A stretch of DNA of 64,000 nucleotides. Source: an uncultured Dehalococcoidales bacterium. GTDB taxonomy: Bacteria; Chloroflexota; Dehalococcoidia; Dehalococcoidales; UBA2162. Below are positions 28,829 through 45,640 of this stretch, piece by piece (the first letter of the stretch is position 1; every line of letters starts with the position of its first letter). The notes under the pieces are model-generated. The model was given only the letters and a program-made list of their open reading frames with translations. It was not told where the DNA came from and ran no database searches. Both the position numbers and the translations under genes were made by a program. The stretch is taken from NCBI GenBank assembly GCA_964493985.1, contig CAZBQL010000002.1:2824-66823 (forward strand), read 5' to 3'.

Positions 28829-29125
28829 CTACACCCGGAAGATTTCTCCAGTTTCCTTGTGTTTCCAGAAGCCTCGCTGCTGCAATGGCCAGTTGAATTT
28901 AACCGCCCCGGGAACGGGACATTCATTGACACATGTGCCGCAGTACCAGCATTCGTCCGGATGTAATATCATAGGGGGCTTTCCTTTCTCACGGTTAGGG
29001 ATATAAACATCTATCGGACACACCTCTACACATCTGTTACAGCCGTTACAGACCTCGGCATTAAAAATTACAGGCTTACTCGGTGTAATCACATTGGGAA
29101 GTGCGTACACTTTTTCTTTCGTCAT
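28829..29125 (-). CDS. 2x[4Fe-4S] ferredoxin subunit, AprB-like
   Basis: Two CxxCxxCxxxCP motifs are present (CNGCNRCVEVCP, CWYCGTCVNECP). The PDECWYCGTC spacing resembles the adenylylsulfate reductase beta N-terminal domain. It is translationally adjacent to the AprA-like gene (AAGGAG before the ATG). Confidence 0.7.
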   Translation of the reverse strand: MTKEKVYALPNVITPSKPVIFNAEVCNGCNRCVEVCPIDVYIPNREKGKPPMILHPDECWYCGTCVNECPVPGAVKFNWPLQQRGFWKHKETGEIFRV

Positions 29126-29140
29126 GATTGAGTCTCCTTT

Positions 29141-31057
29141 CTATCCTACATAAACACCGGTGTAGTCTTTGTTGTTGGCTTCATAATTTTCTTTTAGATT
29201 GCCCCAGTAGTCCAGGGGTACCTCACCGATAGTTACCTTATCGTTTTCAAGTCGTATAGTGATAAACTTGTTCCATTCCGGCGGGTCCAGTTCCGGGTAA
29301 TCAATCCTGTAGAAATCGAGATACCGGCTGCTTGCTTTACGCGCCAGAGAAGCGTGGAGGATTATCTGGGCATAGGTTAGAATGCTCAGGTCTTCCAGGC
29401 TGCGCAGCAGTTTATGCGGGTCAAGCGCGTACAGCTTCGGCACCCAGTTCTCTTCAATGTCCTTAAGTGAGTTTAACGCCAGATTGAAAAGCGATTCGGT
29501 CTTGTATTCGCTGCAGAAATACTGCATGGTCCTGGCAATCCCCGCATGGAGTTCCTTCCACTCTATTCCATCACTTCTCTTAACAGGGGCGTAGACCCTT
29601 GCCTTCTCTCTGGATATCTGCTCTCGTGATATCGTTGGTTTGCCGGCTTGCCGGGCAAAGTCGGCAGCCTTTCTTCCGGCGTATCGGCCCGTGGAAGCAG
29701 CAAAACTGGTATCTCCGATGGCAAATAGCTGGCTTCCGGCGGCATACAGCCCTTCCACGCTGCTTCTTAAATCCCAGTCAATCATCACACCACTGCCACG
29801 GGTACCCGGTATATCGATTGCGCGCCATTGAGGTGGGCTGACTCCCTCTATCAACTGGTAATTCATTAACTGGTCTTTCGATGGGTCGAATCCTGCTTCG
29901 TTGAAGGTATCTACAATTATCTTGGTAACCGATTCCTCCTGCAGCATCATACCCCACGTTATGTTTCGTTCCATTTCGGGCATACCGGGGAAATCTCCGT
30001 AGAATGGCAGAGCGTATTCCCCTTTGAGAACACCATCACGAATTGCCTGCCACGGTCCGGTTCGCGCCTGCCGGTCGACAGGCTGGGGATTTACTCCCCA
30101 TCCCTGATTTCCTACCGGAAGCTTCTTACCGTTAGCATCCACAAGCTGAACATTCTCGTAACTGGCATCTCCGGCACCGCCATACCATTTATGTTTGTAG
30201 CCGGTACCGATGCCCAGCAGCCCGGATTTCTCCATCAAAGTAAGAGAAGCCCCCGCCCTCCAGGCCATAGCATTGCCATCGCCGGACAGGGCACGGGACT
30301 GGTGAGTGGAAATACCGGCTAGTTCCGTATTGAAAACCCAGATCGAGCCGGGTACTCCCGTACACAGTACCGTCGCTCTGGATTTGAAGACCATGAATTC
30401 GCCGGTCCTGTTATTTATTCCCGTAGCACCGACAATCCTGGCCCCCTGGATGCCTTTTTCATTTAACAGGCTGGTGACCATCACTCTATCGTAAATACTG
30501 ACTCCCAGGCGCAGACATTCTTTTCGCAGTACTGGCTTAAAAGTAGTCCCCCAGACACGGAATACAACATTCGACTCATGAAACGCATTGTTCCTTGGAG
30601 AAAACATGAATTTGGTCTCTTCATCCCTGCCCTCGGCACCTTTCCATTCATCATCGGTATCTCTGATTTTACCGCCCATCTGTTCCAGTTCAAGAAGTGT
30701 ATCATAGTCTTCCCGGCATTGTATCTGACGACCAATCCCACAGTTATAGCCGCCATTTGCGTTTGTCAATCGCTGCGCCCACTCATCGGGGTCAACCCTG
30801 GATAAAGGGTGGTTGGGCGCATCACACCAGTGGTCGACTCCGGGACCAACGGCGCCGCTCCTTACTGTAGCCGACTTTTCGACCAGTGCCACTCTCAGAC
30901 CTTCTCTGGCAGCACTGATTGCCGCCCAGCACCCTGCCATCCCGCCACCTATTACAAGAATATCCGTATCGATTTCCTGTTCTTCGTCATAAAGTATCGG
31001 ATACGGCCAGTCGGGTGGACGGGATTCTTGATTAATAAATTCGTGAAATAATGCCAT
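29141..31057 (-). CDS. FAD-dependent oxidoreductase, adenylylsulfate-reductase-alpha-like / fumarate-reductase flavoprotein superfamily
   Basis: A dinucleotide fold DILVIGGGMAGCWAAISAAREG is followed by LVEKSATVRSGAVGPGVDHW, which resembles the AprA pattern (EK..RSGAV..G). Length is 638 aa and it is paired with an AprB-like ferredoxin. The substrate is unknown. Confidence 0.65.
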   Translation of the reverse strand: MALFHEFINQESRPPDWPYPILYDEEQEIDTDILVIGGGMAGCWAAISAAREGLRVALVEKSATVRSGAVGPGVDHWCDAPNHPLSRVDPDEWAQRLTNANGGYNCGIGRQIQCREDYDTLLELEQMGGKIRDTDDEWKGAEGRDEETKFMFSPRNNAFHESNVVFRVWGTTFKPVLRKECLRLGVSIYDRVMVTSLLNEKGIQGARIVGATGINNRTGEFMVFKSRATVLCTGVPGSIWVFNTELAGISTHQSRALSGDGNAMAWRAGASLTLMEKSGLLGIGTGYKHKWYGGAGDASYENVQLVDANGKKLPVGNQGWGVNPQPVDRQARTGPWQAIRDGVLKGEYALPFYGDFPGMPEMERNITWGMMLQEESVTKIIVDTFNEAGFDPSKDQLMNYQLIEGVSPPQWRAIDIPGTRGSGVMIDWDLRSSVEGLYAAGSQLFAIGDTSFAASTGRYAGRKAADFARQAGKPTISREQISREKARVYAPVKRSDGIEWKELHAGIARTMQYFCSEYKTESLFNLALNSLKDIEENWVPKLYALDPHKLLRSLEDLSILTYAQIILHASLARKASSRYLDFYRIDYPELDPPEWNKFITIRLENDKVTIGEVPLDYWGNLKENYEANNKDYTGVYVG

Positions 31058-31163
31058 TTTCTTACCTCCATATCATACAAAAACTCTCATCTGGTCACAT
31101 AAAAAGCCCGCAATGCTTCATTATTTTTTTTTGTATTTCGCCTCTCTTCGTATTATCAATACA

Positions 31164-32504
31164 TTAATAACTATTAAGTTGAACCGGTGGAGTCGGTTTG
31201 GGTGTAAACAAAAACAGTACCGATGAAATAATTGCGAACGATATCGCTACTATCCAGGCAAGCTCATACGTGCCATAGACATCAAAAATTATCCCTGCAA
31301 AGGGCGCACCGGCGAAACTTAAAGCTGTGGTTACAGGCAACGCAAGTCCTCTTATACTTCCTATATTGGCTTTGCCAAAATAATTAGGGTATATGATACT
31401 CATTATAATCATCTGGCTTGTTGCTGCGATGCCAAAAAGTCCATTAGCCACAAAAGCCTGCCATGCTTCCGTGGTTACAAACATAAGCAAGATGACAATT
31501 ACCCTTACAAGCTGAGACCCTATCAGCAGGTAACGCAGTCGTATACGCCCGGCTGCATAGCCTATGGGCATAATTATAGCCAGGACAATCACCGCCTCAA
31601 AAGAAAGGGAGTAGGCTACGATCTGCGGATCAATTCCCCGGCTGACGAAATGAGGAACACGAAATAGCTGGATAGTGCCATTGGCGAACGCAGCCAGCCC
31701 AAAGGCCAGAGAAAGCTTCCAGAAAGCTGGAGAATGAATAGCTTCTGCTCGCGTCCAGGAATACTCTTCCAAGGCTTCATCAGGGTCATCTTGCCGTTGT
31801 TCGCCTTCAATCGGACCATTATTATCAATATCAGGTACTTGTATAGAATTGCCGTCGATGAACTGACCTATATCTTCCGGCTTACGCCTTATAAGCAGAG
31901 CGACAAGAAGAACAACCACACCTCCGACAATTCCCAGGATGACCGTAGCATTACGCCATCCTATACTCTCAATCAGGTACGCTGTCAGAGGAGCAAATAT
32001 GAGTATCCCGATCGAGGTGCCGAGGAATACTCGGGACATTGCCTGGCTCCGCTTGCGTACGAACCAGTTTGAAATGGTAACCACCGTGTATAAATTACCG
32101 CCGCCTCCCTGTAGCCCTATCAGCCCCATCATTAAAAAAATAGCAACTACCTGCCAGCCTTCCTGTATAATCGACATCATTAGTATAACGCCGCAGATAA
32201 GAATTCCGGCGATTGCCATCGGCCAGCGGGCTCCATAGCGATCCAATATTCGCCCGAGAACTAACCCGGAAGCAGCACTGCCAAGTAACCTGGCCGACTG
32301 CGCCCATCCAAAGAATGTCTGGCCGATCTTTAACTCGCGGCTGATAGGTTCAATGAAGAGTCCGAAGTTTATTCCCAGCATACCCATCGAGACCATGGTA
32401 ACCAGGCCAAGGCCGCTTACAATTACCCAGCCATAGAAGATTGGTTTCTCTCTGAATGACAGATTATAAAAATTCATAATGTGTTTGATCTTCACACCAC
32501 CCAA
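31164..32504 (-). CDS. MFS transporter
   Basis: About 12 predicted hydrophobic helices surround a central charged loop (PEDIGQFIDG...DDPDEALEEY), and an MFS-type GRILDRYG motif is present. The track start at 32504 is TTG. ATG at 32477 (MNFYNL...) is an alternative. Confidence 0.8.
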   Translation of the reverse strand: MGGVKIKHIMNFYNLSFREKPIFYGWVIVSGLGLVTMVSMGMLGINFGLFIEPISRELKIGQTFFGWAQSARLLGSAASGLVLGRILDRYGARWPMAIAGILICGVILMMSIIQEGWQVVAIFLMMGLIGLQGGGGNLYTVVTISNWFVRKRSQAMSRVFLGTSIGILIFAPLTAYLIESIGWRNATVILGIVGGVVVLLVALLIRRKPEDIGQFIDGNSIQVPDIDNNGPIEGEQRQDDPDEALEEYSWTRAEAIHSPAFWKLSLAFGLAAFANGTIQLFRVPHFVSRGIDPQIVAYSLSFEAVIVLAIIMPIGYAAGRIRLRYLLIGSQLVRVIVILLMFVTTEAWQAFVANGLFGIAATSQMIIMSIIYPNYFGKANIGSIRGLALPVTTALSFAGAPFAGIIFDVYGTYELAWIVAISFAIISSVLFLFTPKPTPPVQLNSY

Positions 32505-32705: not shown

Positions 32706-34499
32706 TTATGCACTGCCGGCTTTCGTTAGCGTAGCGCCTGTAATCTGCTTTGTTAAAATCCCTTTTGGTGCATATAAAGCCTCTCTAAGGTAATTAAAGG
32801 AGAAAGCAGAGCCGGGCGACCCACCGCTAACAAAGAAGTGAATACATTCCGGCGAAACAAGAACAGGGACCACCTCTCCCGGATTTAGCGCTTTTTCAAA
32901 AACAGGTCTTCGATCTGCGGGAATTGCCCCATTTTCGATTGCCTGTTGAATACCTTTCTTATCGTCCTCATTGAGGTCTTCATACCTCACTGCAATTCTT
33001 CGATATAGCTCGTTTCTAAGACTTTCCTGGTCGTAGCCCATCTTATTCAATTCACTAACCAGTTCGGGGAACAGAATAATATAATGATTGTTGGTTACTT
33101 TCTGAAGGACCATTCCCGTAATTCCCCAGCGGGGGAACAACCAGCGGTCGGTAAATATCAAACGGGCAACAATATTATCCAGTATCGAATCTGCTGTCCA
33201 GGTCCCGATCATACCTCCGTAGTGATTGGTCTGAGGGGTGGCGTTTGATACTGTAGCGACAGTGACGCAGCTGTCATCCGGTTGAAAACCCTGAGTCGTA
33301 TGGTAAGGTAGCCAGGGGTTTGCGTCGTTCTCCGTAAAAGTATAAAAAATATGCGGGTTTACCCTTCCGGTAATGGCCATATCATTCAAACCGGGCCAGG
33401 TCCGACCGATATTGAGTGTCACCAATCTCACAGCACGCCCGATCGAGCTGTTCGCCCGCCAGCCATGCCCGAGGAAGCCGATTCCGGAATTCATATTGAT
33501 TTCTTTTCCCATCGGACCTGATACCACTATCATAAAAGAGAAAGAACCTGCCGAAGTAAGGACATGAAGGTGGTCGAAATCCGGATCAAGTATTATTTCC
33601 ACGGCAGTTATGATTACCGGAAAGTATTCAGGTCTTGCTCCCGCCATTACAGCGTTTATAGCGATTTTTTCTATAGTAGCTGTGCCTAACTTAGGTTTCA
33701 TCTTGCCAATCACTTCATCAGGAGAACGCTTTGTTCCGGAAAGCATCCACTCAACATGTTCGGGAGTAGGAGGTACCAGGGGCAGTCCATCACCCCAGCC
33801 TTTGGAGAGATAATCTTGACCGAATTCCTCGCAGACCATCGGGATAAACTCTGAGATGTATGTAAGTGTACCTGGTCCGTCTTCGTCAATTTCCTGTGGA
33901 GGCGTGTTTGTTTCTTCCGGTGTCAGAGGAATGGTTAATGCGTCGATAAGATCGTCAAACACTGCTTCCACAAGCGGTCTTATTGTATCTATGGTCCCCC
34001 GTAGTTTATAAAATTCAGATGATTTAATTTGTCGATGACGGAAATTGGGCATAGAATGATCGCCTGCTGCAGAAATCGCATCGAAATTAAAAGTATCACA
34101 ATTAATAAATACGCCAGGTTTACCCATTCTCTCCAGCTTTACTGTACCGGCAACGCCGGTATACGTGCAGGAACCTCAATCTCCAACCCCGTAAATAAAG
34201 GTATCGATCTGAGAACCCCACTCATTTGCGTTTTTATCATTTATCAGGTAATCACCCGATAAATAGATTGTCTTCGCAGTGGGATATTTCCCTTTTAACA
34301 GTTCCGCGAATACCGTGTAAAATCTATCTACTCCATCTTTCCCATTCGAGTATAAGCCCACTGTTTTACCTTCCAGGCTATCGATACGTGGTGCAGGCGC
34401 ATAGGTCGGGGACGATTCAACTACTCCGCGGGGATTAAGAACTTCTATTTTTTCTATTTTACTCACTTTGGACCTCGAACTTTTTCTTGAGTATACCAT
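32706..34499 (-). CDS. Putative selenoprotein: UGSC-motif domain fused to a ~430-aa conserved uncharacterised domain (in-frame TGA at 34176-34178 read as Sec)
   Basis: Track ORFs 34176..34499 and 32706..34127 share one frame and are separated only by a TGA. Hand translation across the junction gives ...FIYGVGD-U-GSCTYTGVAGTVKLERMGKPGVF... A hairpin lies 14 nt downstream of the TGA. The likely true start is GTG 34466 (GAGG 6 nt upstream). See finding. Confidence 0.65.
34145..34161 (-). promoter_or_regulatory. Candidate bacterial SECIS stem-loop
   Basis: On the minus-strand RNA, UACCGGC-GUU-GCCGGUA forms a perfect 7-bp stem with a 3-nt G/U loop. It starts 14 nt 3' of the in-frame UGA. Confidence 0.45.
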
Positions 34500-34560
34500 T
34501 AACTATTGGGAAGAGTTAAAATCAAATAACAATAATACACTGATCGAAGGAGACGAAATT

Positions 34561-35364
34561 ATGAGTCTGCCAGATTTCTCTTTAAATGACAAAGTTGCCC
34601 TGGTTATAGGAGCAGGGAGTGTCAGGGGTATAGGGAGAGAAATAGCGTTAACCTTTGCTGAAGCCGGCGCTGATGTAGCAATTTCCGGTATAAGCTCCAA
34701 ATCATCGACCAGCGATCTGGATAGTACTGCCCGGGCTATCAAAGAGTTAGGACACCGCACTCTCGCTATGCGAACCGATGCCACGAAAGAGAGTGAAGTG
34801 AACGCCCTCATGGACGCGGTGGCTAAGGAGTTCGGCACTATCGATATCCTGGTAAATAATGCCGGTGCATCCGCTCACGAAACACTTCTGAAAACCACCG
34901 AAGAACTGTGGGACAGGGCAATGAATATCAACTTGAAAAGTGCATATTTAGGTTGTCGTGCCGCAGCGCGTATAATGACGGAAAATAATTCCGGTAATAT
35001 TATTAATATGGCATCGATAGGGGGACTCAAGACAGGCAGCGCCTGCGTATATGGTATCGCCAAAGCCGGGGTAATCGTTCTGACCGAATGGTTAGCCAAT
35101 GAATTAGCGGCGTATAATATCAGGGTAAATTGCCTCGCTCCAGGACCTATCGATACCGATATAGGCTTAAACAGGATCGGACGTCCACCCTGGGAAGTAG
35201 CCAGTGGTACGTATGAACAAATGATTCAGAAAGGTGAAACACCCCTGGGTGGAAAAGGTAAAACGAGCGACGTGGCAAGTGCGGCATTATTCCTGGCATC
35301 AAATGCTTCGCGTTTTATTACGGGAGAAACAATAATAATCGATGGTGGTATGGTCCTGATATAA
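34561..35364 (+). CDS. Short-chain dehydrogenase/reductase (SDR)
   Basis: KVALVIGAGSVRGIG (Rossmann), NNAG, and catalytic S...YGIAKAG (YxxxK) are present. The start is ATG 34561 after GGAG. The track extension to 34468 (TTG) has no SDR-like sequence. Confidence 0.85.
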   Translation: MSLPDFSLNDKVALVIGAGSVRGIGREIALTFAEAGADVAISGISSKSSTSDLDSTARAIKELGHRTLAMRTDATKESEVNALMDAVAKEFGTIDILVNNAGASAHETLLKTTEELWDRAMNINLKSAYLGCRAAARIMTENNSGNIINMASIGGLKTGSACVYGIAKAGVIVLTEWLANELAAYNIRVNCLAPGPIDTDIGLNRIGRPPWEVASGTYEQMIQKGETPLGGKGKTSDVASAALFLASNASRFITGETIIIDGGMVLI

Positions 35365-37124: not shown

Positions 37125-37182
37125 CAAATTGAGTATACAAGAAAGTTATAACTTATTAACAGTTTGTGAAAAGGACGACAAT

Positions 37183-37533
37183 ATGAAAATAACGAGAATG
37201 TACACCGGTGAGGATGGCGAATCCCATTTCGAAGACATCGATATCTCTTTGGGCAGTCCTGACAAATCCGACCGACGGTCGGAACTTATTAAAGCAACAG
37301 GTATCATCTTCAGGGAGACCGGAGGTGATTACTCTCTGAAATTCCACAACGCACCGCGCCGCCAGTTTGTAATCAACCTTGAAGGCTCTGTAGAGATAAT
37401 TTTGGGTGACGGGTCAAGCCGGATACTCGGACCTGGAGAAATCCTCCTGGCGGAAGATACCACCGGTAGAGGACACATAAGCCGAGCCGTCAACAACCAG
37501 TCAAGAAAGTCTATCTTTGTTACTCTTGACTGA
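37183..37533 (+). CDS. Small cupin-like protein of unknown function
   Basis: Length is 116 aa from ATG 37183. It is beta-rich with a G-x-x-x-L-x-ED-x-G-x-GH pattern (GPGEILLAEDTTGRGH) reminiscent of a cupin fold. This is a weak assignment. Confidence 0.45.
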   Translation: MKITRMYTGEDGESHFEDIDISLGSPDKSDRRSELIKATGIIFRETGGDYSLKFHNAPRRQFVINLEGSVEIILGDGSSRILGPGEILLAEDTTGRGHISRAVNNQSRKSIFVTLD

Positions 37534-38413: not shown

Positions 38414-39361
38414 ATGGCAATGATCAATTCGGTACTTGGACCACTCGATACATCCGACATAGGAACGACACTGCTTCACGAACATATCCTCAGTTCGTCC
38501 ACAGCCATTCCCCAGAATTACCCGGAAGTACTCGATACGGGATATATGAGAATGATAGTCAGGAAATTGAAAGAGGCGAAAGCCGGTGGGATCGACACTG
38601 TCGTCGATGCCACTACACTCGACCTTGGCAGGGACGTGAACGTGCTGGCTGAAGCCTCGCGCAAAAGCGGCGTTAATATTATCTGCTGTACCGGCTGGTG
38701 GACAGAGAAACCTCGCTTTCTGAGTGGAATATCGATCGACAGACTGGCGAAGGGGTTCATTCGCGAGATACGCGAGGGAATTGCTGGAACGGACATCAAG
38801 GCAGGGATATTAAAAGGAGCTTCGGATAAAGCAGGCGTGCAACCGGAAGAAGAAAAGGTCCTGCGAGCGGTAGCCCGGGCCCATCACGAGACCGGTGTTC
38901 CAATTATGGTCCATTCCTACTCGCCGGGTCAGGTCGGCGGACGGCAGATAGCCATCCTGAAAGAAGAAGGTGTTCCTCTCAACCGGGTAAAGATAGACCA
39001 TTCAAACGATACTACCGACCTTGAATACCTTTTCTGGATGCTGGAACAAGGGTGCTACCTGGGAATGGACCGCTATCCCGGAGAAGGCGCCAGTCCGCTG
39101 GCAAGGACCAGGACCCTCAAGGCACTTATCGATGCCGGTTACAAAGATAAACTGGGAGTCTCCCATGACTGGTCGCTGGCTCGATACGTCGCCAGTGATT
39201 CTATAATCGGCTCATCCTCTAAGAGAAAGAAGATCAATCCGTATGATTACCTCTACATAAAGAAAGTGGTGTTCCCGATGTTGCGTGAGATGGGAGTTCC
39301 CGATAAGGTTATCGATAAAATCCTCGTAGACACCCCACGTAAATTCTTCGAGGGAGTCTAA
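38414..39361 (+). CDS. Phosphotriesterase-family (PTE/PHP-like) metal hydrolase, possible lactonase
   Basis: The N-terminal GPLDTSDIGTTLLHEHIL (HxH metal site) is present. AGILKGA, VPIMVHS and IDHSND are spaced as in amidohydrolase-superfamily PTE-related proteins. Confidence 0.8.
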   Translation: MAMINSVLGPLDTSDIGTTLLHEHILSSSTAIPQNYPEVLDTGYMRMIVRKLKEAKAGGIDTVVDATTLDLGRDVNVLAEASRKSGVNIICCTGWWTEKPRFLSGISIDRLAKGFIREIREGIAGTDIKAGILKGASDKAGVQPEEEKVLRAVARAHHETGVPIMVHSYSPGQVGGRQIAILKEEGVPLNRVKIDHSNDTTDLEYLFWMLEQGCYLGMDRYPGEGASPLARTRTLKALIDAGYKDKLGVSHDWSLARYVASDSIIGSSSKRKKINPYDYLYIKKVVFPMLREMGVPDKVIDKILVDTPRKFFEGV

Positions 39362-39426
39362 CTACCGTAAACAATTCAGAATATAATTACACCTATTTAG
39401 ACCATGTATATCAGAGGAGGAAGAAA

Positions 39427-40227
39427 ATGCGATTGGATGGAAAGACGGCAATAATTATCGGTGCCGGTCAGAGTCCCGGTGAAGGGATCGGTAACGGTCG
39501 AGCCACGGCAATTCGATTCGCCCGGGAAGGGGCGCGGGTAATGGCGGTAGACCGTGATTTTACTTCCGCCGAAGAAACAGTTGCACTACTGGAGAAGAAA
39601 AACGGCAAACATTTCGCCTTTGAAGCCGATGTTACCAGAGAAGCTACGTTAAAAGCCGTCGTAGACGAAGCGGTTAAGCAATGGGGTAGAATCGATATTC
39701 TTCATTATAACGTAGGCGTCAGCCTCGGTGGCGGTGATACGGAATTGCTGGAATTTACCGAGGAAACTTTCGACCGTATATTCAGAATCAATCTTCGTGG
39801 CGTTATCATGGCCTGTAAGCATGTGGTACCCGTAATGAGGAAGCAGCAGAGCGGTGTCATCCTGATGATCGGTTCACTGGCAGTTTACGAGAATTATCCT
39901 TATGTGGCATATAAAGCATCGAAAGCGGGGATGGTCGCTTTCATGCACCAGCTGGCAATACGCAATGCTGAATACGGCATCCGTGCCAATGCCATTTTAC
40001 CCGGCATAATGGATACACCGATGGCAGTAGATACCAGGGCAAAAGTGTTCGGGAAAAGTCGCGCGGAAGTAGCCGCACAAAGGGATTCCCGCGTACCTTT
40101 GAAGCATAAAATGGGCACTGCATGGGATGTAGCTAATGCAGCGCTGTTTCTTGCTTCGGATGAAGCCGGCTTTATTACCGGAGTATCACTGCTGGTCGAT
40201 GGTGGCAGTGCACTTAAAGTAGGGTAA
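39427..40227 (+). CDS. Short-chain dehydrogenase/reductase (SDR)
   Basis: GKTAIIIGAGQSPGEGIGNGRA, YNVG and catalytic YKASKAG are present. Confidence 0.85.
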   Translation: MRLDGKTAIIIGAGQSPGEGIGNGRATAIRFAREGARVMAVDRDFTSAEETVALLEKKNGKHFAFEADVTREATLKAVVDEAVKQWGRIDILHYNVGVSLGGGDTELLEFTEETFDRIFRINLRGVIMACKHVVPVMRKQQSGVILMIGSLAVYENYPYVAYKASKAGMVAFMHQLAIRNAEYGIRANAILPGIMDTPMAVDTRAKVFGKSRAEVAAQRDSRVPLKHKMGTAWDVANAALFLASDEAGFITGVSLLVDGGSALKVG

Positions 40228-40320: not shown

Positions 40321-42675
40321 TTAATCAGCACGACAGCCCAGAACGGCTCTTTTCACCAGAATTTTCGCTATCTGAATCTTGTATGTGTTATCCGGGAGTG
40401 GACATACATCTTCAACAGCAATATTGCCGGCTGCTTCGGCAGTAGTATCATCGATACTTTTTCCCGTTAAATACTGCTCTGCGCTGACAGCCCGGTAAGG
40501 TGTATTATATACTGCATTCAGGCATATTCTCGACGACGTAACAGTCCCGTTTTCAATCTCAAGCGCTACCGCGCAATTTAGTATTGAAAAATCGATAGAT
40601 TTCCTTAAGGCAAACTTGATGAATTTACTCCTCGCCCCGTTTTTCATCGGTGGTAACTCTATTTCCGTTATTATTTCATTTTCGATTATCGTCGTATTAT
40701 CGCCTTTTACCGTGAAGAAATTTTCCGCATCGATCACTCTCCGGGTGGTCCTGATTTTAACGTCAAGGGCTATAAGCACCGGGGCAATATCAGATGAGTT
40801 GACCGCCAGACAACCGCAGTTGAAACACCTGCCGGCTTCTTCCATTACCTTTTCCTTTTCCATGTTTCCGGTCTCTTCCAACTCTATATTCTTTACCCGC
40901 TCGGATACGGATAGTCCGGAGACATCGTTCCGGGCGGTCGGTCGCAGGTAATCCTTATCGAATTTTTCCGGATGGGTACTATCTGTATCCTGATATTTTC
41001 TAATTCCTTTCCCACCGAGATAACGGTCAATAGACTCGGCGGTATTCCTTCCTGAGGTTATTGCCTCTATAACTGTTGACGACCCGGTTACGCAATCACC
41101 TCCGGCAAAGATATTAGCGTCCAGTAAACCGTCCATATTGACTTCAAGACGGTCATCCGAACCAAGTAATTCCGCCGGTAAAATCGAATAATCCGGCACC
41201 TCGCCCGTAGCCTTTATAACAGCATCGTATTCGACAGTAAATTCAGAACCCTCGACAGGTTCAGGTCTTGGTCTGCCACTTTCATCGGTAGCACCAAGTT
41301 TCATCCTGGTACACTCAAGTACAATGTTCCCTTCTTGACCTTTTGCCGAAACCGGAAGTGTCAGGAACTGCATTTCAATGCTTTCCTCTTCCGCCTTTAT
41401 TATTTCCTCTTCGATCGCAGGCATTTCTTCGCGACTGCGACGGTAGAGTATTACCGGTTCTGCTCCCAGTCTCAAGAGAGTCCTGGCAACATCTATTGCC
41501 ACATTGCCGCCACCCATCACGGCTACTTTTTTCCCTGAAGATTCACCGATTATTTTATTATTTCTGAGGAATTCAGTACCCGAAACCATCAGTTCTTCGC
41601 CCCTTATTCCGAGGGGTCTCTCTTTCCAGGCACCCGTCGCCATGAATACGGCATCGTAATCTCCTGATATCTTCCTGATATCCTCGATTCTGCCGTCAGC
41701 AGGTCCTGTCCTGAAAATAATACCTGACTCTGCCAGTGCCGATATCTGTTTTTTTACAATATCTTTCGGCAGGCGGTATGGAGGGATACCGTACGTCAGC
41801 ACTCCTCCCGGTTCTTCCATAGCCTCGAAGACGGTCACGCTATATCCAGTCTTTCTGAGATACCAGGCGCATGAAAGTCCTGCCGGTCCTGAACCGATTA
41901 CGGCTACTGTTCCATTATTCTCTACTTCAGGAGGTCTATAAATCGACTTCGAATTCTCAAGGGCGTAATTGCCAATATACCTTTCGATATTCCTGATTGA
42001 TACGGCTTCGTCCAGTTCATCTCTGTTACAGACACTTTCACAGAAATGAGGACAAACCCTCCCGGTTATCGCCGGAAACGGATTCGAGTCCACTAGTATT
42101 TTTACTGCGCTGTCAATATCTCCCTCTCTCAGCTTACTCATGTAATCCGGGATATTTACGCCGGCAGGGCATTCGGTAACACATGGAGTATCATTCATCC
42201 TTGTGCTGCCGAAGATGGAATGATATCTACCTTCGCCGGCATAGGCATAACACCTTTTTCCGCCCTTTCTGATACAGTAAAACCTGTTATCCGGCACCCA
42301 GTAGTACCAGCACCTGTTACTCTGGCAGATATTTCCTGCAATCGTTCCCTGTTCCCTGATATGAGGTGAAGCGGTTTTCGCAGCAGCTTCGGCAAGAGCG
42401 GGATAGCTTTTCTTAACCTCTGAATTCCGGGCAATATCTTCAAGCCTGGTAAGAGCGCCGATTTTCAGGAAGTTGTCTTCTTCCTTTATATAGTCCAGTT
42501 CGTCAATTTTCTTGATGTTTATAAGTACTTCGGGATATTCGGGCAATATGTTATCTTTCATCTGCCCGAGAAGGTCAGTACCACCGGCTATTACTTTCGC
42601 TTTGCTTCCATATTCCTCGATCGCCTGGGCTGCTTCTTCAAGTGACGTCGCGTTAATATGTTTGAATCTCTTCAT
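40321..42675 (-). CDS. Molybdenum-hydroxylase FAD subunit (CoxM/HcrB-like) interrupted by a GltD-like [4Fe-4S]/FAD/NAD(P)H oxidoreductase module
   Basis: The N-terminus KVIAGGTDLLGQMK is followed by a Cys-rich stretch CQSNRCWYYWVPDNRFYCIRKGGKRCYA. GltD signatures follow (NPFPAITGRVCPHFCESVCNR, VAVIGSGPAGLSCAWYL, KVAVMGGGNVAIDVARTL). The sequence then returns to a CoxM middle/C-terminal domain (CFNCGC..., RSKFIKFALRKSIDFSILNCAVALE). Confidence 0.8.
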   Translation of the reverse strand: MKRFKHINATSLEEAAQAIEEYGSKAKVIAGGTDLLGQMKDNILPEYPEVLINIKKIDELDYIKEEDNFLKIGALTRLEDIARNSEVKKSYPALAEAAAKTASPHIREQGTIAGNICQSNRCWYYWVPDNRFYCIRKGGKRCYAYAGEGRYHSIFGSTRMNDTPCVTECPAGVNIPDYMSKLREGDIDSAVKILVDSNPFPAITGRVCPHFCESVCNRDELDEAVSIRNIERYIGNYALENSKSIYRPPEVENNGTVAVIGSGPAGLSCAWYLRKTGYSVTVFEAMEEPGGVLTYGIPPYRLPKDIVKKQISALAESGIIFRTGPADGRIEDIRKISGDYDAVFMATGAWKERPLGIRGEELMVSGTEFLRNNKIIGESSGKKVAVMGGGNVAIDVARTLLRLGAEPVILYRRSREEMPAIEEEIIKAEEESIEMQFLTLPVSAKGQEGNIVLECTRMKLGATDESGRPRPEPVEGSEFTVEYDAVIKATGEVPDYSILPAELLGSDDRLEVNMDGLLDANIFAGGDCVTGSSTVIEAITSGRNTAESIDRYLGGKGIRKYQDTDSTHPEKFDKDYLRPTARNDVSGLSVSERVKNIELEETGNMEKEKVMEEAGRCFNCGCLAVNSSDIAPVLIALDVKIRTTRRVIDAENFFTVKGDNTTIIENEIITEIELPPMKNGARSKFIKFALRKSIDFSILNCAVALEIENGTVTSSRICLNAVYNTPYRAVSAEQYLTGKSIDDTTAEAAGNIAVEDVCPLPDNTYKIQIAKILVKRAVLGCRAD

Positions 42676-42681
42676 ATGCTT

Positions 42682-45135
42682 CTATGCCTTTCCCAGCGCT
42701 TTCAATACCTTATCGGGCGTCATCGGCAGGTCCTGAATCCACATTCCTATGGCGTTATGCACTGCGGGGATTATAAGCGTAGGCACTATTGTTGCTACAT
42801 CCTCACCGATGCCAACCAGACCATACGGACCGTATCCCATTCCGGTCTCTACCAGGAGAGTATCTATCGGCCCGATGTCCAGCATTGTCGGGATCTTATA
42901 ATTCAGCAGGTTGCCGTTCAGCATGACTCCAGTCGACTTGTCGTAGACGACTTCTTCGCTACGTCCTCTGCCTACCGCCATGCAGGTACCGCCATACTGC
43001 TGACCTTCGCAGCCGTCCCAGCTTATAACCTTGCCTACGTCGTTAACATTGACAACCCTTGTTATGTCAACCTCACCTGTATCGGTATCAACCTCCACCT
43101 CCATAAAGTGTGCCTGGCGGCAAAGTCGCAATCGAATTCCGGCATAAGCTCCGGTCTGCATCTGCCAGCTATATTCGAAGAACGGTTCCCTGTAAGGATA
43201 TCCCTGTTCTTCATCGGGAGATTTAACCGGTTCGCCCTTGGGAGCGGTCAACGGTCCCATTGCCCCCGAGGGCCCGATAAACTCAGCCATCGAAATATTA
43301 TTTTCAGGGTGTGCTATTTCAAAGATAATACTGTCCTTTATATCGAGTTCTTCGGGTTTCTTACTTGGGAAAGCAGGAGGAAAGCTGCCAAGTTGTGTTA
43401 CGCCGGTGGGGCTTGTTGCCGCTTCAAGTACTTTTCTTCTAAGGAGTCGGGCGGCATTCCGTATGGCGTAACCGTTTACCGACATGTTTGTCGAGGTATC
43501 GGGTGTCATGGTGAAGAAGCCTGTGTCATGGTGTGGACGGTAATAGACGTCTTCCATTTTCATTCCCAGCTCATCGGCAGCTATCTGGCAGTAGGAAGTC
43601 TCAGCGTTCACGCCCACATCGGCTCGGCATCCGTAGATACAGGCTGTTCCGTCATTACGTTCAAGACGAATTGCTATTTCACTCGACCCTGCCGAATCGT
43701 CCCATTCATGACTCCATGCAAAACCAATACCGTGCATCTTTCCGTTGGGCAGCTTCTTTGTCCCGGGCGTGTGCCATCTTTCATCCCAGTGTATTGCTGC
43801 TTTGCCTTTTTCAATACATTCTCTGAGGCTGTCCCTGGCAGGGAAACCCATTTTCACTTTCTGCTCGTTGAGCCATTCCATATCATGGCCTTCGGCGCCA
43901 TCGTTCTTGAGAGCAACCTCTATAGGGTCCATACCGAGAACATCTGCAACACGATTGAATACCAGCGTGATGCTGTGACAGTTTGCATTCTGCTCACAGC
44001 GTGTTGGTACGGTCGGGCCTTTATTAACCTTGACCGCTTCAGTCTTCCCATAAATATTGGGGATTCTGGTGTTGTCCATCAGGTGTTTAACGATGCCGAA
44101 AACCGGCATTGTCTGGTTCACCATAACCGCTCTCGCCTGGACGGCGGTTATGGTACCGTCCATTTTCATGCCTACTTTATAATAATAGACCCCTATATCC
44201 ATTTCGCCGCCATAAAAGTCTTCCCTGCGGCTGAATGTCCACTTGACCGGCCTGCCCGTCCGCCTGGATATAACGGCAGCGCAGTAATGCCCGCCCAGGT
44301 TCCAGGCCATCTGGCTCCACCCACCGAAACTGGCTCCCTGGTAGAGGCAGTGCACCTGGATATGATTCATTGGTATTCCACCGAACCAGGTTGATACAGC
44401 TCGTTTGGCAATATGCGGTCGCTGTTGCTTTACCCAGAGCTCAGGATATTCACCATTCCAGGTAAACACACCGCAGGGACATTCCGGTCCTATCCAGGTA
44501 TTAAGCCCCTGGACGAACTTGAATTCGATTATCTTGTCGGCTTCAGAAAAACCTTTCTCAACGTCTCCCTGGGATTCAACCGACGTCTCCTGGCCGTAAA
44601 GGTTGCCGTCAGGATTCTCCTCCGGGTTTGCTAGAGGCGAGTCCGACTCAAGGGCTTTTTCCGGGTCGAGTACAAAGGGGCGTTCTTCCCACTCTACTTC
44701 TATCAGTGCCAATGCTTCCTGAGCAATTGCCTCTGTATCGGCTGCCACCGCCGCGCCTGCTTCCTCACCCTGGAAATGGGCTATATGAGGTATGGAAGGT
44801 TCTGCCGAAGGCTCATGCCCACCCACATCGACTGTCGCAGGCAGCTCCGGATCGTCATATCTCAACACCATCCTTACTCCGGGAAATGCTTCTGCTTTAC
44901 TTGTGTCCATTTTTTTAATCTCAGCATGAGGGTAAGGACTGGTCAGGAATCTCATATACAACATACCCGGCAGGTGTACATCCATCGTATATACGGCTTT
45001 TCCGCTGGCTTTCTCGTATCCGTCTATCTTCCTTATGCCGCGTTTTCCTATGCTGCGATATTGTTCCAGGGGATATTTATCACTCCTCAGGTTATCGAAC
45101 TGCTCACTGATTTTAGACATTTCATTGCCGTTCAT
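42682..45135 (-). CDS. Molybdopterin-binding large subunit of a xanthine-dehydrogenase-family hydroxylase/reductase
   Basis: The Ald_Xan_dh N-terminal domain is present (IDGYEKASGKAVYTMDVHLPGMLYMRFLTSPYPHAEI), followed by FGG, EQNANCH and GIGED-type segments. Length is 817 aa. It sits between the 2Fe-2S and FAD subunit genes. Confidence 0.85.
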   Translation of the reverse strand: MNGNEMSKISEQFDNLRSDKYPLEQYRSIGKRGIRKIDGYEKASGKAVYTMDVHLPGMLYMRFLTSPYPHAEIKKMDTSKAEAFPGVRMVLRYDDPELPATVDVGGHEPSAEPSIPHIAHFQGEEAGAAVAADTEAIAQEALALIEVEWEERPFVLDPEKALESDSPLANPEENPDGNLYGQETSVESQGDVEKGFSEADKIIEFKFVQGLNTWIGPECPCGVFTWNGEYPELWVKQQRPHIAKRAVSTWFGGIPMNHIQVHCLYQGASFGGWSQMAWNLGGHYCAAVISRRTGRPVKWTFSRREDFYGGEMDIGVYYYKVGMKMDGTITAVQARAVMVNQTMPVFGIVKHLMDNTRIPNIYGKTEAVKVNKGPTVPTRCEQNANCHSITLVFNRVADVLGMDPIEVALKNDGAEGHDMEWLNEQKVKMGFPARDSLRECIEKGKAAIHWDERWHTPGTKKLPNGKMHGIGFAWSHEWDDSAGSSEIAIRLERNDGTACIYGCRADVGVNAETSYCQIAADELGMKMEDVYYRPHHDTGFFTMTPDTSTNMSVNGYAIRNAARLLRRKVLEAATSPTGVTQLGSFPPAFPSKKPEELDIKDSIIFEIAHPENNISMAEFIGPSGAMGPLTAPKGEPVKSPDEEQGYPYREPFFEYSWQMQTGAYAGIRLRLCRQAHFMEVEVDTDTGEVDITRVVNVNDVGKVISWDGCEGQQYGGTCMAVGRGRSEEVVYDKSTGVMLNGNLLNYKIPTMLDIGPIDTLLVETGMGYGPYGLVGIGEDVATIVPTLIIPAVHNAIGMWIQDLPMTPDKVLKALGKA

Positions 45136-45136
45136 A

Positions 45137-45640
45137 TCATTTCCCCTCTTTGTGAAGTATACTGGCTGCTTCCTTCACAGCTTTGATGTGCTGCGGGTAT
45201 GTCCCGCACCGGCAAAGATTACCGGCGAGAGCTTCCTTGATTTCATCCACCGTTGGTGAAGGATTCCTGTCCAGCAATGCTTTAGCCGTGACGACAAAAC
45301 CGGGTGTGCAGTACCCGCATTGCATTGCGCTGTGTTTAACATACGTTTCAACAAGAGGATGCTGCTCGCGTGCTATACCTTCTATCGTTTCAATATTCTT
45401 ACCGCCACATTCTATAGCCAGTGTCATGCATGAAAGGACAGGCCTTCCCTCCATGATAACAGTGCAGGCACCACAGGCACCTTCATCGCAAAAAACCTTG
45501 GTACCCGTAAGGCCCAGCACATCGTGAATGACATACTGTAAAGTCCAGTTTTCCTGTACTATTACTTCATGTTTTTCGCCGTTGACGATAAGACTAATTT
45601 TCATCTCTGACATCGTACCTCTATCTTCTTTTTCGGACAT
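45137..45640 (-). CDS. [2Fe-2S]x2 small subunit of the molybdenum hydroxylase (CoxS/HcrC-like)
   Basis: CDEGACGACTV (plant-type 2Fe-2S) and QCGYCTPGF...CRCGTY (second 2Fe-2S) are present. ATG 45613 is an alternative start. Confidence 0.9.
   Translation of the reverse strand: MSEKEDRGTMSEMKISLIVNGEKHEVIVQENWTLQYVIHDVLGLTGTKVFCDEGACGACTVIMEGRPVLSCMTLAIECGGKNIETIEGIAREQHPLVETYVKHSAMQCGYCTPGFVVTAKALLDRNPSPTVDEIKEALAGNLCRCGTYPQHIKAVKEAASILHKEGK

What the first reader, a model, noticed from the sequence alone, without database searches (positions are those of the whole stretch)
28829..45640. 17-kb redox/catabolic island of unknown substrate, possibly an anaerobic hydroxy-aromatic acid pathway
Fourteen consecutive genes form three transcription units.
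- **Minus strand:** the UGSC selenoprotein candidate, an MFS transporter, an AprA-like flavoprotein and an AprB-like ferredoxin.
- **Divergent plus strand:** SDR, EntE/DhbE-like aryl-acid adenylating enzyme/CoA ligase, a cupin-like protein, SDR, a phosphotriesterase-family hydrolase (lactonase-like) and SDR.
- **Convergent minus strand:** the 2Fe-2S, Mo-pterin and FAD/GltD subunits of a xanthine-dehydrogenase-family enzyme.

The combination suggests a specific chemistry. An aryl-acid-type ligase sits beside a Mo enzyme whose FAD subunit has the Cys-rich insertion I associate with 4-hydroxybenzoyl-CoA reductase beta. Together they suggest CoA activation followed by reductive dehydroxylation or hydroxylation of an aromatic or heterocyclic acid. 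Ring reduction (SDRs) and ring or lactone hydrolysis (PTE-like) could follow.

No gene in the island has an assignable substrate, and no dedicated regulator is present. The co-occurrence of a selenoprotein, an orphan AprAB-like pair and a chimeric Mo enzyme is not a pathway I recognise.
Basis: inference. Interest (0 to 1): 0.6.

Follow-up and report, generated by a model that had tools for sequence, protein, structure and literature searches.

The report
Patchwork of unrelated redox gene units
The 17-kb stretch holds real and partly unusual redox and catabolic genes, but in related genomes they occur as about six separate small units, so it is a chance neighbourhood in a paralogue-rich Dehalococcoidales genome, not one new pathway.

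Summary
The genes are there as described. There are 13 genes, or 14 ORFs because the selenoprotein is split at its TGA. The window comes from a Dehalococcoidales MAG.

Across 60 relatives, 28 loci from other phyla and 80 metagenome contigs, the stretch breaks into units that are found separately:
- ferredoxin plus AprA/FrdA-like flavoprotein
- MFS transporter
- UGSC selenoprotein fused to a large unknown domain
- SDR1
- ligase-cupin-SDR-PTE-SDR
- the 2Fe2S-Mo-FAD enzyme

In the closest relative (about 90% identity) the units lie on different contigs with other neighbours. None of the 28 loci carrying the chimeric Mo enzyme has the ligase, PTE, cupin or flavoprotein nearby.

- The ligase belongs to the DhbE/EntE clade, but with an altered pocket.
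- The Mo subunit's closest solved relative is HcrA.
- The FAD subunit has the HcrB-type four-Cys loop plus an NfnB/GltD-like module.

That FAD-subunit architecture and the gene order match UxdFOC, a urolithin dehydroxylase published in 2025. This scan had already met the same design in another genome.

One weak lead remains. The unknown domain family (34 copies) lies near four of the six flavoprotein loci.

Interest is low for the island. The parts are members or variants of known kinds.

The parts
28829..29125 (-). Unit A, gene 2: 98-aa ferredoxin with two [4Fe-4S] motifs, 15 bp downstream of the flavoprotein gene
   Evidence: It matches the Fer4 families. The AprB model scores 28 bits against a cut-off of 135. 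It travels with the flavoprotein in G003, G016, G031 and G019.
29141..31057 (-). Unit A, gene 1: 638-aa FrdA/AprA-superfamily flavoprotein of unknown substrate
   Evidence: FAD_binding_2. The best solved relatives are AprA at 90 bits and the PAPS reductase alpha subunit. No NCBIfam model reaches its cut-off. Orthologues of 71-91% identity sit in other contexts.
31164..32504 (-). Unit E: MFS transporter resembling organic-anion or monocarboxylate carriers
   Evidence: MFS_1 scores 132 bits. The lactate and oxalate/formate MFS models are weak and below cut-off. The 87% orthologue in G007:C33 has no other island gene within about 9 kb upstream and 5.6 kb downstream, where the contig ends.
32706..34499 (-). 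Unit B: selenoprotein with a UGSC domain, Sec codon TGA at 34176-34178, fused to a roughly 430-aa domain that may correspond to the 'Unknown_1' of the 2008 paper
   Evidence: Read-through gives GD-U-GSC. UGSC Pfam scores 77.5 bits. The TGA is conserved in G003, G026, G006, G014 and in paralogues. A UGSC/Unknown_1 fusion is noted in PMC2398784; that its Unknown_1 is this domain was not checked. The AF2 model of the C domain has pLDDT 91 and no match in the PDB.
34110..34175 (-). Possible SECIS: a 7-bp G+C-rich hairpin with a GUU loop, starting 14 nt after the UGA
   Evidence: The hairpin is present in the fold, but the whole stretch folds no better than shuffles (z 0.07). This is suggestive only.
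34468..35364 (+). SDR1: classical short-chain dehydrogenase. The true start is probably near 34561.
   Evidence: adh_short_C2 scores 211 bits from residue 42. Orthologues of 71-72% identity in G001:C105 and G005:C15 stand without any other island gene.
35490..37124 (+). Unit C, gene 1: ANL adenylating enzyme or CoA ligase of the DhbE/EntE clade with a changed pocket
   Evidence: DhbE, EntE and salicylate-AMP ligase score 333-334 bits. Asn235 is kept, with Y236L, S240A, V329A and V337G in DhbE numbering. TIGR02275 scores 395 bits against a cut-off of 724. An orthologue in the same position was seen only in G003:C39.
37129..37533 (+). Unit C, gene 2: small protein, weakly cupin-like
   Evidence: Cupin_2 matches at E 0.005 only. 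It is adjacent to or near SDR2-PTE in G003, G026 and G031. It stands alone at about 60% identity elsewhere.
37580..38365 (+). Unit C, gene 3: SDR2
   Evidence: The PRK07231 'glucose 1-dehydrogenase' subfamily scores 235 bits against a cut-off of 215. It is next to PTE in G003, G015, G026 and G031.
38414..39361 (+). Unit C, gene 4: phosphotriesterase-family hydrolase, most likely a lactonase
   Evidence: PF02126 scores 237 bits. The OPH equivalog scores 205 against a cut-off of 500. Homologues of 68% identity or less stand alone in 13 relatives and in about 75 metagenome contigs.
39427..40227 (+). Unit C, gene 5: SDR3
   Evidence: adh_short_C2. It follows PTE in G003, G026 and L093/L094.
40321..42675 (-). 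Unit D, gene 3: FAD subunit made of a CoxM-like FAD domain, an HcrB/PaoB-type four-Cys loop (C117, C122, C134, C142), an inserted NfnB/GltD-like module (two [4Fe-4S], FAD, NAD(P)H) and the CO_deh_flav_C end
   Evidence: Pfam domains, PDB matches and the Cys-loop alignment. It occurs full length in 28 loci of several phyla.
42682..45135 (-). Unit D, gene 2: Mo-pterin subunit of the xanthine oxidase family
   Evidence: Three Pfam domains. Its best solved relative is HcrA at 184 bits over the full length. No NCBIfam equivalog reaches cut-off. It is 64-93% identical in 27 of the 28 loci.
45137..45640 (-). [quoted passage not shown]
   Evidence: Fer2_2 and Fer2. It is present in 25 of the 28 loci.

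Best explanation
The stretch is a lineage-specific juxtaposition of about six separately inherited functional units, in a genome packed with paralogous catabolic and redox genes. It is not one pathway.

**The units and their likely roles**
- **A, flavoprotein plus ferredoxin.** A soluble two-subunit flavin/iron-sulfur oxidoreductase of the AprA/FrdA superfamily. It probably reduces an organic acid, taking electrons through the ferredoxin subunit (inferred).
- **E, MFS transporter.** An organic-anion carrier (inferred from weak family matches).
- **B, UGSC selenoprotein.** A redox-active Sec-x-x-Cys domain fused to an enzyme-like domain of unknown fold. That it is a selenoprotein is shown. Its function is unknown.
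- **SDR1.** An orphan dehydrogenase.
- **C, ligase-cupin-SDR2-PTE-SDR3.** A small operon that most likely opens a lactone or cyclic ester (PTE), oxidises or reduces hydroxyl/keto groups (SDRs), and activates the resulting bulky, probably aromatic, carboxylate as an acyl-adenylate or CoA thioester (ligase). All of this is inferred.
- **D, 2Fe2S-Mo-FAD subunit.** A self-contained Uxd/Hcr-like molybdenum enzyme. NAD(P)H reduces the FAD of the inserted NfnB-like module. Electrons then pass through its two [4Fe-4S] clusters and the HcrB-type [4Fe-4S] to the second FAD, through the two [2Fe-2S] clusters, and on to the Mo centre. There a phenolic or heteroaromatic substrate is reductively dehydroxylated. 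The architecture is shown. The direction of electron flow and the substrate are inferred.
For: **Each unit is conserved, but apart from the others**
- Unit A: G003:C25 (91%), G016:C22, G031:C24 and G019:C38, with SDR, MR_MLE and MmgE/PrpD neighbours in place of MFS and UGSC.
- MFS: G007:C33 (87%), alone.
- UGSC fusion: G003:C7 and G026:C148, with other neighbours.
- SDR1: G001 and G005, alone.
- Unit C: the full order in G003:C39, mid-contig with other flanks. Only the SDR2-PTE core is kept in G015, G026 and G031.
- Unit D: G006:C4 (79-93%), G001, G019, G004, G032 and G055.

**Wider samples**
- In 28 loci from Chloroflexota, Actinomycetota and 'Deltaproteobacteria' MAGs, the Mo subunit accompanies the chimeric FAD subunit in 27 and the 2Fe2S subunit in 25. 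Ligase, PTE, cupin, flavoprotein and ferredoxin accompany it in none.
- Of 80 metagenome contigs with a PTE relative, only the 100%-identical L090 repeats the arrangement.

**Phyletic patterns are independent**
- G003 and G031 (92-93% complete) have unit C but no full-length chimeric subunit.
- G006 (92% complete) has unit D but no PTE.

**Architecture of unit D**
-, and PMC12658268 for UxdFOC.
Against: - Gene order in this lineage is poorly conserved in general. The flanking genes of the island also lack close syntenic counterparts in same-genus genomes. Absence of synteny is therefore weaker evidence here than in a well-conserved lineage.
- Relatives are fragmented MAGs with 64-97% completeness.
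- The unknown-domain family lies within 6.3 kb of four of the six flavoprotein loci in this genome. Two of these paralogous pairings are kept in four genomes each. Units A and B may therefore be linked at family level.
- A lactonase, an aryl-acid ligase with an enlarged pocket and a Uxd-like dehydroxylase could in principle act on one polyphenol lactone.
- No expression data exist.
Confidence: 0.7

Rival explanations
1. One pathway, in the first reader's sense, updated with the Uxd precedent. A hydroxylated aromatic lactone or acid (urolithin-, coumarin- or hydroxybenzoate-like) is taken up by the MFS carrier. The PTE lactonase opens it, the DhbE-like ligase activates it, the Uxd/Hcr-like Mo enzyme dehydroxylates it, and the SDRs and the flavoprotein process it further.
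For: - The ligase lies in the aryl-acid clade, with a pocket enlarged at four positions.
- HcrA is the closest solved relative of the Mo subunit, and the FAD subunit has the HcrB-type loop.
- UxdFOC has the same architecture and acts on a phenolic lactone (PMC12658268).
- Had and Oah show that a benzoyl-CoA route exists in the organism.
- All the genes are adjacent, and a second record (L090) confirms part of the order.
Against: - No other genome or contig examined keeps the units together.
- Units C and D each occur without the other in 92-93% complete genomes.
- None of the 28 Mo-enzyme loci has a ligase, PTE or cupin nearby.
- Seven other ligases in the genome look more like benzoate-CoA ligase.
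- Units C and D are convergent, so they cannot share a transcript.
Confidence: 0.1
2. Partial coupling. The four minus-strand genes (ferredoxin, flavoprotein, MFS, UGSC-unknown-domain protein) form one working cassette of a type that recurs as paralogues in this lineage. The plus-strand operon and the Mo enzyme are independent of it.
For: - In this genome four of the six flavoprotein loci have a member of the unknown-domain family within 1.6-6.3 kb. The naive expectation is about 12% per locus, giving P of about 0.003.
- The C4-type and C16-type pairings are kept in four genomes each.
- Locus C4 also has an MFS gene between the two.
Against: - The closest orthologues of this particular flavoprotein have no unknown-domain gene within about 10 kb in G016 and G031, and the nearest one in G003 is 16 kb away.
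- The MFS orthologue stands alone in G007.
- The MFS at locus C4 is not detectably related at E 1e-8.
- Paralogous loci may be block duplications, so the P value overstates the case.
- Gaps of 106 and 201 bp allow separate promoters.
Confidence: 0.2

Closest known systems
UxdFOC, the 10-hydroxy-urolithin dehydroxylase of Enterocloster species (PMC12658268, 2025)
   Same: - The gene order is the same: 2Fe-2S subunit, Mo subunit, FAD subunit.
- The FAD subunit is lengthened by a 4Fe-4S-binding domain and a second FAD/NAD(P)-binding domain.
- It belongs to the xanthine oxidase family and is modelled on 4-HBCR.
   Different: - Sequence relatedness to UxdO and UxdC could not be tested here because no sequence was on hand.
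- The host is a sediment- or soil-type Dehalococcoidales, not a gut Firmicute.
- The substrate is unknown.
- There is no ucd-type partner operon next to it.
4-hydroxybenzoyl-CoA reductase HcrABC of Thauera aromatica (PDB 1RM6)
   Same: - HcrA is the best solved match of the Mo subunit, at 184 bits over the full length.
- The four-Cys [4Fe-4S] loop of HcrB aligns with C117, C122, C134 and C142.
- The subunits are the same three types.
   Different: - All three NCBIfam Hcr equivalog models are far below cut-off: 286 against 995, 137 against 405, and 161 against 258 bits.
- The FAD subunit has an extra NfnB-like module, so NAD(P)H rather than ferredoxin is the likely partner.
- No CoA ligase accompanies the enzyme in any of the 28 loci.
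NfnB/GltD-type NADPH-oxidising flavin/iron-sulfur modules (PDB 4YLF_B, 5JCA_L, 9N5U_A)
   Same: Residues 163-560 of the FAD subunit match these chains at 279-355 bits. The match includes the Fer4_20 two-cluster domain and the Pyr_redox_2 domain.
   Different: Here the module is nested inside a CoxM-type FAD subunit instead of pairing with NfnA or a glutamate synthase large subunit. Nothing here shows electron bifurcation.
DhbE/EntE/salicylate-AMP ligases (PDB 1MD9, 6E8O, 5WM2)
   Same: - This is the closest clade by a wide margin, at 333-334 bits.
- Asn235, the mark of aryl-acid activation, is kept.
   Different: - It scores below the equivalog cut-off (395 against 724 bits).
- The pocket residues are changed: Y236L, S240A, V329A and V337G.
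- No aryl carrier protein or NRPS is in the stretch, so CoA is the likely acceptor.
Phosphotriesterase-like lactonases and phosphotriesterases (PF02126)
   Same: It gives a full-length family match, and the best solved relatives are PTE/OPH chains at about 210 bits.
   Different: It scores below the OPH equivalog cut-off (205 against 500 bits). The substrate is unknown. It is paired with SDRs only in the closest relatives.
UGSC-containing selenoproteins and the UGSC/Unknown_1 fusion (Zhang and Gladyshev 2008, PMC2398784)
   Same: It has the UGSC motif with Sec encoded by TGA, and it is fused to a large conserved domain of unknown function.
   Different: That the paper's Unknown_1 is this same domain was not checked. 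Here the family is greatly expanded, with 34 copies of the fused domain in one genome, at least five of them behind an in-frame TGA.
Adenylylsulfate reductase AprAB
   Same: The best solved relatives of the flavoprotein are AprA chains, and a small two-cluster ferredoxin follows it.
   Different: AprA scores 96 bits against a cut-off of 642, and AprB 28 against 136. There is no sulfate-reduction context in the window. The genome has six close paralogues, with organic-acid genes around the orthologues.

Membership tests
Conserved gene cluster or genomic island encoding one pathway | The same genes are adjacent in other genomes that have the orthologues | tested here: not met
   This was tested in 60 relatives, 28 loci of other phyla and 80 metagenome contigs. 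Only a 100%-identical contig repeats part of the order.
Conserved gene cluster or genomic island encoding one pathway | The parts co-occur across genomes | tested here: not met
   Unit C occurs without unit D in G003, G015, G026 and G031. Unit D occurs without PTE in G006. No genome but G000 has all the units.
4-hydroxybenzoyl-CoA reductase (HcrABC) | The curated equivalog models TIGR03194, TIGR03195 and TIGR03193 are reached | tested here: not met
   286.5 against 994.55, 136.7 against 404.55, and 161.4 against 257.8 bits.
4-hydroxybenzoyl-CoA reductase (HcrABC) | An extra [4Fe-4S] loop with four Cys in the FAD subunit | tested here: met
   C117, C122, C134 and C142 align with the Cys of 1RM6_B and of PaoB.
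4-hydroxybenzoyl-CoA reductase (HcrABC) | Acts on a CoA thioester made by a linked ligase | tested here: inconclusive
   None of the 28 loci has a relative of the island's ligase within 10 kb, and no ligase family appeared among the recurrent neighbour clusters that were annotated. Substrate use itself is not testable here.
UxdFOC-type dehydroxylase | Gene order 2Fe2S-Mo-FAD, and an FAD subunit with added 4Fe-4S and FAD/NAD(P) domains | tested here: met
   Coordinates and Pfam domains, compared with the description in PMC12658268.
UxdFOC-type dehydroxylase | Sequence orthology of the Mo subunit to UxdO | not testable with these tools
   No Uxd sequence could be obtained by reference.
Adenylylsulfate reductase AprAB | The curated equivalog models TIGR02061 and TIGR02060 are reached | tested here: not met
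   95.9 against 641.75, and 28.1 against 135.65 bits.
DhbE/EntE (2,3-dihydroxybenzoate-AMP ligase) | The equivalog model is reached, and the pocket code N235, Y236, S240, V329, V337 is kept | tested here: not met
   394.7 against 723.55 bits. N235 is kept, but L, A, A and G stand at the other four positions.
UGSC selenoprotein family | UGSC domain with in-frame TGA at the U, conserved in relatives, and Sec machinery in the genome | tested here: met
   PF24696 scores 77.5 bits. GD-U-GSC is read. The TGA is conserved in eight further genes. SelB is over cut-off.
UGSC selenoprotein family | A bacterial SECIS hairpin just after the UGA | tested here: inconclusive
   A 7-bp hairpin lies 14 nt downstream, but the stretch folds no better than shuffles.
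Phosphotriesterase family (PF02126) | Full-length match over the gathering score | tested here: met
   237.5 against 22.4 bits. The OPH equivalog is not reached.

The most novel reading that the evidence does not exclude
In this organism the neighbouring units have been brought together into a working anaerobic route for a hydroxylated aromatic lactone, such as a plant polyphenol derivative of the urolithin or coumarin kind. The route would comprise lactone opening by the PTE-family enzyme, CoA activation by a DhbE-clade ligase with an enlarged pocket, and NAD(P)H-driven phenol dehydroxylation by a Uxd-like Mo enzyme. The flavoprotein and the UGSC selenoprotein would act as further redox steps.
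Probability: 0.1. Interest if true: 0.6.

Novelty: not a real feature. Interest (0 to 1): 0.22.

Why it matters
The result mostly guards against over-reading. In Dehalococcoidales MAGs rich in paralogues, a long run of redox genes is not evidence of a pathway. Automated labels such as '4-hydroxybenzoyl-CoA reductase' or 'AprA' should not be chained into one.

The parts keep some value on their own:
- The three-gene Mo enzyme with a built-in NADPH module is widespread in uncultured Chloroflexota and Actinomycetota. It now has a characterised gut counterpart (Uxd), so phenol dehydroxylation in sediments and soils becomes testable.
- The UGSC-fused unknown domain is a very large family with a confident model and no known fold.

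Tried and rejected
Context had to be rebuilt with the genome search, the fetch from genomes and the search for related loci.
- **Fold of the unknown C domain.** The model is confident (pLDDT 91). Foldseek against the PDB gave nothing at E 0.001 or better. VIA-align over 48,161 chains gave Z of 5.9 at most, for small sub-domains only. The weak likeness to class-I fumarate hydratase and YjgF-type folds is not used. The ESM Atlas returned only UGSC-named or unnamed clusters.
- **Promoter and terminator scan**. There were many consensus hits, none decisive. A promoter-like site before the ligase (35407-35435) and one before the MFS gene (32582-32555) fit separate units but prove nothing.
- **SECIS by folding energy.** Not significant.
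- **Flank synteny.** The GlgP-like gene was not found at E 1e-100 in five same-genus genomes. The Pat-like gene has only 32-52% matches. The island cannot be shown to be an insertion between conserved flanks, and the lineage has weak synteny overall.
- **Aromatic context for the Mo enzyme.** G006 has two HGD-D genes and a BcrAD-type ATPase beside it, and G019 has the ATPase. Across 28 loci the recurrent neighbours are instead GlcD-like FAD oxidase (8 loci), Zn-ADH (6), MobA-like (4), CCG Fe-S (4) and IlvD/Edd (4). No consistent partner emerged.
- **Tree of the Mo subunit against HcrA, NdhL, XdhB and CoxL.** Not made, because reference sequences could not be brought in by reference. Bit-score ranks were used instead.

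Full report
**What is there**

The window is contig C2 of a 3.27-Mb, 198-contig MAG (92% complete). Close protein relatives are named Dehalococcoidales.

On the minus strand:
- a 98-aa 2x[4Fe-4S] ferredoxin
- a 638-aa FAD_binding_2 flavoprotein
- an MFS transporter
- a gene of about 597 codons with one in-frame TGA

Read through, that TGA gives ...GD-U-GSC..., the UGSC motif, and the UGSC Pfam model then matches at 77.5 bits. The remaining 430 or so residues have no Pfam match.

On the plus strand:
- an SDR
- an ANL ligase
- a 134-aa ORF with only a weak cupin match
- an SDR
- a PTE-family hydrolase
- an SDR

[quoted passage not shown] The FAD subunit carries FAD_binding_5, Fer4_20, Pyr_redox_2 and CO_deh_flav_C in that order. 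That makes 13 genes, or 14 ORFs.

**The selenoprotein is real**

- SelB is present above its curated cut-off.
- The TGA at the U of UGSC is kept in the orthologues of G003, G026, G006 and G014.
- It is also kept in four paralogues of the same genome (C105, C93 twice, C60). One paralogue (C33) has an open frame.
- The family, and a fusion of the UGSC domain to an 'Unknown_1' domain, were described in 2008 (PMC2398784). I did not check that Unknown_1 is the domain seen here.
- The hairpin after the UGA is plausible but not significant by folding energy.

**Is the stretch one unit?**

This is the heart of the finding.

I searched 60 relatives (same genus, family and order) with six marker proteins: the selenoprotein's C domain, the FAD subunit, the flavoprotein, PTE, the cupin-like ORF and the MFS transporter. 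I then searched them with SDR1. I fetched the surrounding DNA and compared it with all island proteins.

The stretch falls apart into units that are each conserved, but separately:
- **Ferredoxin plus flavoprotein.** They stay together in G003:C25 (91%), G016:C22 (88%), G031:C24 (76%) and G019:C38 (71%). Their neighbours there are an SDR, an enolase-superfamily protein, MmgE/PrpD proteins and a CoA-transferase. MFS and the selenoprotein are not among them.
- **MFS.** The orthologue (87%) in G007:C33 has no other island gene within about 9 kb upstream and 5.6 kb downstream, where the contig ends.
- **UGSC fusion.** In G003:C7 it follows URO-D-like and DUF362 genes. In G026:C148 it is followed by an Fe-ADH.
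- **SDR1.** Orthologues (71-72%) in G001 and G005 stand alone.
- **Ligase-cupin-SDR2-PTE-SDR3.** The order is kept in full only in G003:C39, in the middle of a 54-kb contig, between a different SDR and unrelated genes. G026, G031 and G015 keep the SDR2-PTE core. In G026 and G031 the cupin-like gene lies 1.5-4.3 kb away, with a racemase-family gene upstream of SDR2. PTE relatives of 68% identity or less, and cupin relatives of about 60%, stand alone.
- **The three Mo-enzyme genes.** They stay together in G006:C4 (79-93%), G001, G019, G004, G032 and G055, each time with other neighbours.

**Wider samples agree**

- A scan of one genome per species found 28 loci that encode the full-length chimeric FAD subunit, in Chloroflexota, Actinomycetota and 'Deltaproteobacteria' MAGs.
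- The Mo subunit is next to it in 27 of them, at 64-93% identity. The 2Fe-2S subunit is there in 25. The ligase, PTE, cupin, flavoprotein and ferredoxin are there in none.
- A metagenome scan with PTE gave 80 contigs. Only L090, which is 99-100% identical and so the same population, repeats the order UGSC-SDR1-ligase-cupin-SDR2-PTE-SDR3. That at least shows this junction is not an assembly error.
- The phyletic patterns are independent. G003 and G031 (92-93% complete) have the PTE unit but no full-length chimeric subunit. G006 (92% complete) has the Mo enzyme but no PTE.

**Caveats**

- Synteny is weak in this lineage in general. The genes flanking the island have no close counterparts in five same-genus genomes either.
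- The relatives are fragmented MAGs.
- Operon-sized units do survive while the joints between them do not, which is the pattern expected of independent units.
- The genome is crowded with paralogues: 34 copies of the unknown domain, about 35 URO-D-like genes, 24 family-III CoA-transferases, 9 ANL ligases and 11 GltD/NfnB-like modules. A run of 13 redox or catabolic genes is not surprising.

**What the parts are: the Mo enzyme**

- The Mo subunit's best solved relative is HcrA (1RM6_A, 184 bits over the full length), ahead of quinoline oxidoreductase and CoxL.
- No NCBIfam equivalog is reached. XdhA scores 294 against 780, and HcrA 286 against 995.
- The FAD subunit has the four-Cys loop that binds the extra [4Fe-4S] cluster in HcrB and PaoB. 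C117, C122, C134 and C142 align Cys for Cys.
- Directly after that loop a complete NfnB/GltD-like module is inserted, matching NfnB, NfnA and GltD chains at 225-355 bits.
I read the paper (PMC12658268). It describes the operon order uxdF (2Fe-2S), uxdO (Mo), uxdC (FAD). It also states that UxdC has an added 4Fe-4S domain and a second FAD/NAD(P) domain, with two FADs predicted.
- That is the order and make-up seen here. Uxd removes the 10-hydroxyl of urolithins.
- Together with 4-HBCR and Ucd(h), Uxd defines a reductive branch of this family (bioRxiv 10.1101/2025.01.17.632430).
- A reductive dehydroxylase fed by NAD(P)H is therefore the best guess for unit D. Sequence orthology to Uxd could not be tested.
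- Nothing supports a CoA-thioester substrate. No relative of the island's ligase accompanies the enzyme in the 28 loci. Its recurrent neighbours are GlcD-like oxidases, Zn-ADHs, MobA-like and IlvD/Edd genes. HGD-D and BcrAD genes appear only in G006, and BcrAD alone in G019.

**What the parts are: the ligase and PTE**

- The ligase is clearly nearest to DhbE, EntE and salicylate-AMP ligase, at 333-334 bits against 190 for the next group.
- It keeps Asn235. It has Leu, Ala, Ala and Gly at DhbE positions 236, 240, 329 and 337. That makes a larger, less polar pocket.
- It is below the equivalog cut-off, and there is no carrier protein nearby.
- It is only the eighth-best match to the benzoate-CoA ligase family in this genome.
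- Had and Oah, both above their cut-offs, lie together on contig C25. The benzoyl-CoA route exists, but elsewhere in the genome.
- PTE is a full-length family member below the OPH cut-off. A lactonase role next to SDRs is the usual inference.

**What the parts are: the flavoprotein**

- Its best solved relatives are AprA chains, at only 90 bits.
- The AprA and AprB models are far below cut-off.
- The genome has six close paralogues.

**One lead in favour of a link**

- In this genome four of the six flavoprotein loci have a member of the unknown-domain family within 1.6-6.3 kb.
- With 34 copies in 3.27 Mb the naive chance is about 12% per locus, giving P of about 0.003.
- Two of these pairings are kept in four genomes each.
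- One of them has an MFS gene and a URO-D-like gene in between.
- This supports a family-level tie between units A and B.
- Against it, the orthologues of this particular flavoprotein mostly lack such a neighbour, and block duplication would inflate the P value.

**The unknown domain**

- The family has at least 4,279 clusters at 50% identity.
- Its model is confident (pLDDT 91).
- It has no convincing match among solved structures.

**Verdict**

The best reading, at about 0.7, is a patchwork of six independent units. A partial cassette on the minus strand gets about 0.2. The single-pathway reading gets about 0.1.

The parts are members or variants of known kinds. The most unusual one, the Mo enzyme with a nested NADPH module, already has a published counterpart, and this scan had seen it before on other DNA.

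Noticed in passing
window 32706-34127 (C domain of the selenoprotein); G000 contigs C105, C98, C33, C93, C60, C4, C16, C31 and others: The unknown domain fused to UGSC is a very large family: at least 4,279 clusters at 50% identity, and 34 copies in this one genome. Most copies lack the UGSC part. The AlphaFold model is confident (pLDDT 91), yet no solved structure matches it (best Z 5.9 on a sub-domain).
   Followed up: partly
G000:C4:12789-21811, C16:28334-33489, C15:29990-35321; window 29141-34127: Four of the six AprA-like flavoprotein loci in the genome have a gene of the unknown-domain family within 1.6-6.3 kb. Two of these pairings recur in four genomes of the genus. URO-D-like, MFS and Fe-ADH genes recur around them.
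   Followed up: partly
G000:C105, C93 (two genes), C60: Besides the gene in the window, at least four further genes have an in-frame TGA at the UGSC-type position. The paralogue on C33 has no stop there. The genome therefore has several selenoproteins of this family.
   Followed up: partly
G000:C25:29649-31852: Had (466 bits, cut-off 339) and Oah (476 bits, cut-off 464) of the anaerobic benzoyl-CoA ring-opening route lie side by side on another contig. The organism probably degrades aromatic acids through benzoyl-CoA.
   Followed up: no
L012 (G006:C4) 12463-15824; L019 (G019:C75) 164-985: In G006 the orthologous Mo enzyme is followed by two HGD-D genes (2-hydroxyacyl-CoA dehydratase or benzoyl-CoA reductase type) and a BcrAD/BadFG ATPase. 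G019 has the same ATPase family upstream. This was not seen in the other loci.
   Followed up: partly
L031-L064: The Mo subunit of the three-gene enzyme is 64-75% identical between Dehalococcoidales, Actinomycetota (Gaiellales, Thermoleophilia) and 'Deltaproteobacteria' MAGs. That is high for such distant hosts. It suggests horizontal spread or very strong constraint.
   Followed up: no
L093 and L094, 6682-11900; window 25804-27939: In two metagenome contigs with a 75% PTE relative, a GlgP/DUF3417-like gene (55% identical to the window's) lies about 1-3 kb upstream of PTE-SDR3. In the window the same gene is 10 kb upstream. This may be a remnant of an older, shorter arrangement.
   Followed up: no
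G000:C21:30511-34279: A second xanthine-oxidase-family enzyme in the genome has an ordinary FAD subunit without the NfnB-like insert. The N- and C-terminal parts of the query match contiguously.
   Followed up: no
window 45929-48598: The gene just beyond the island is an 889-aa fusion of an ADP-forming acyl-CoA synthetase-like part and a GNAT domain, which is the Pat-type protein acetyltransferase architecture.
   Followed up: no
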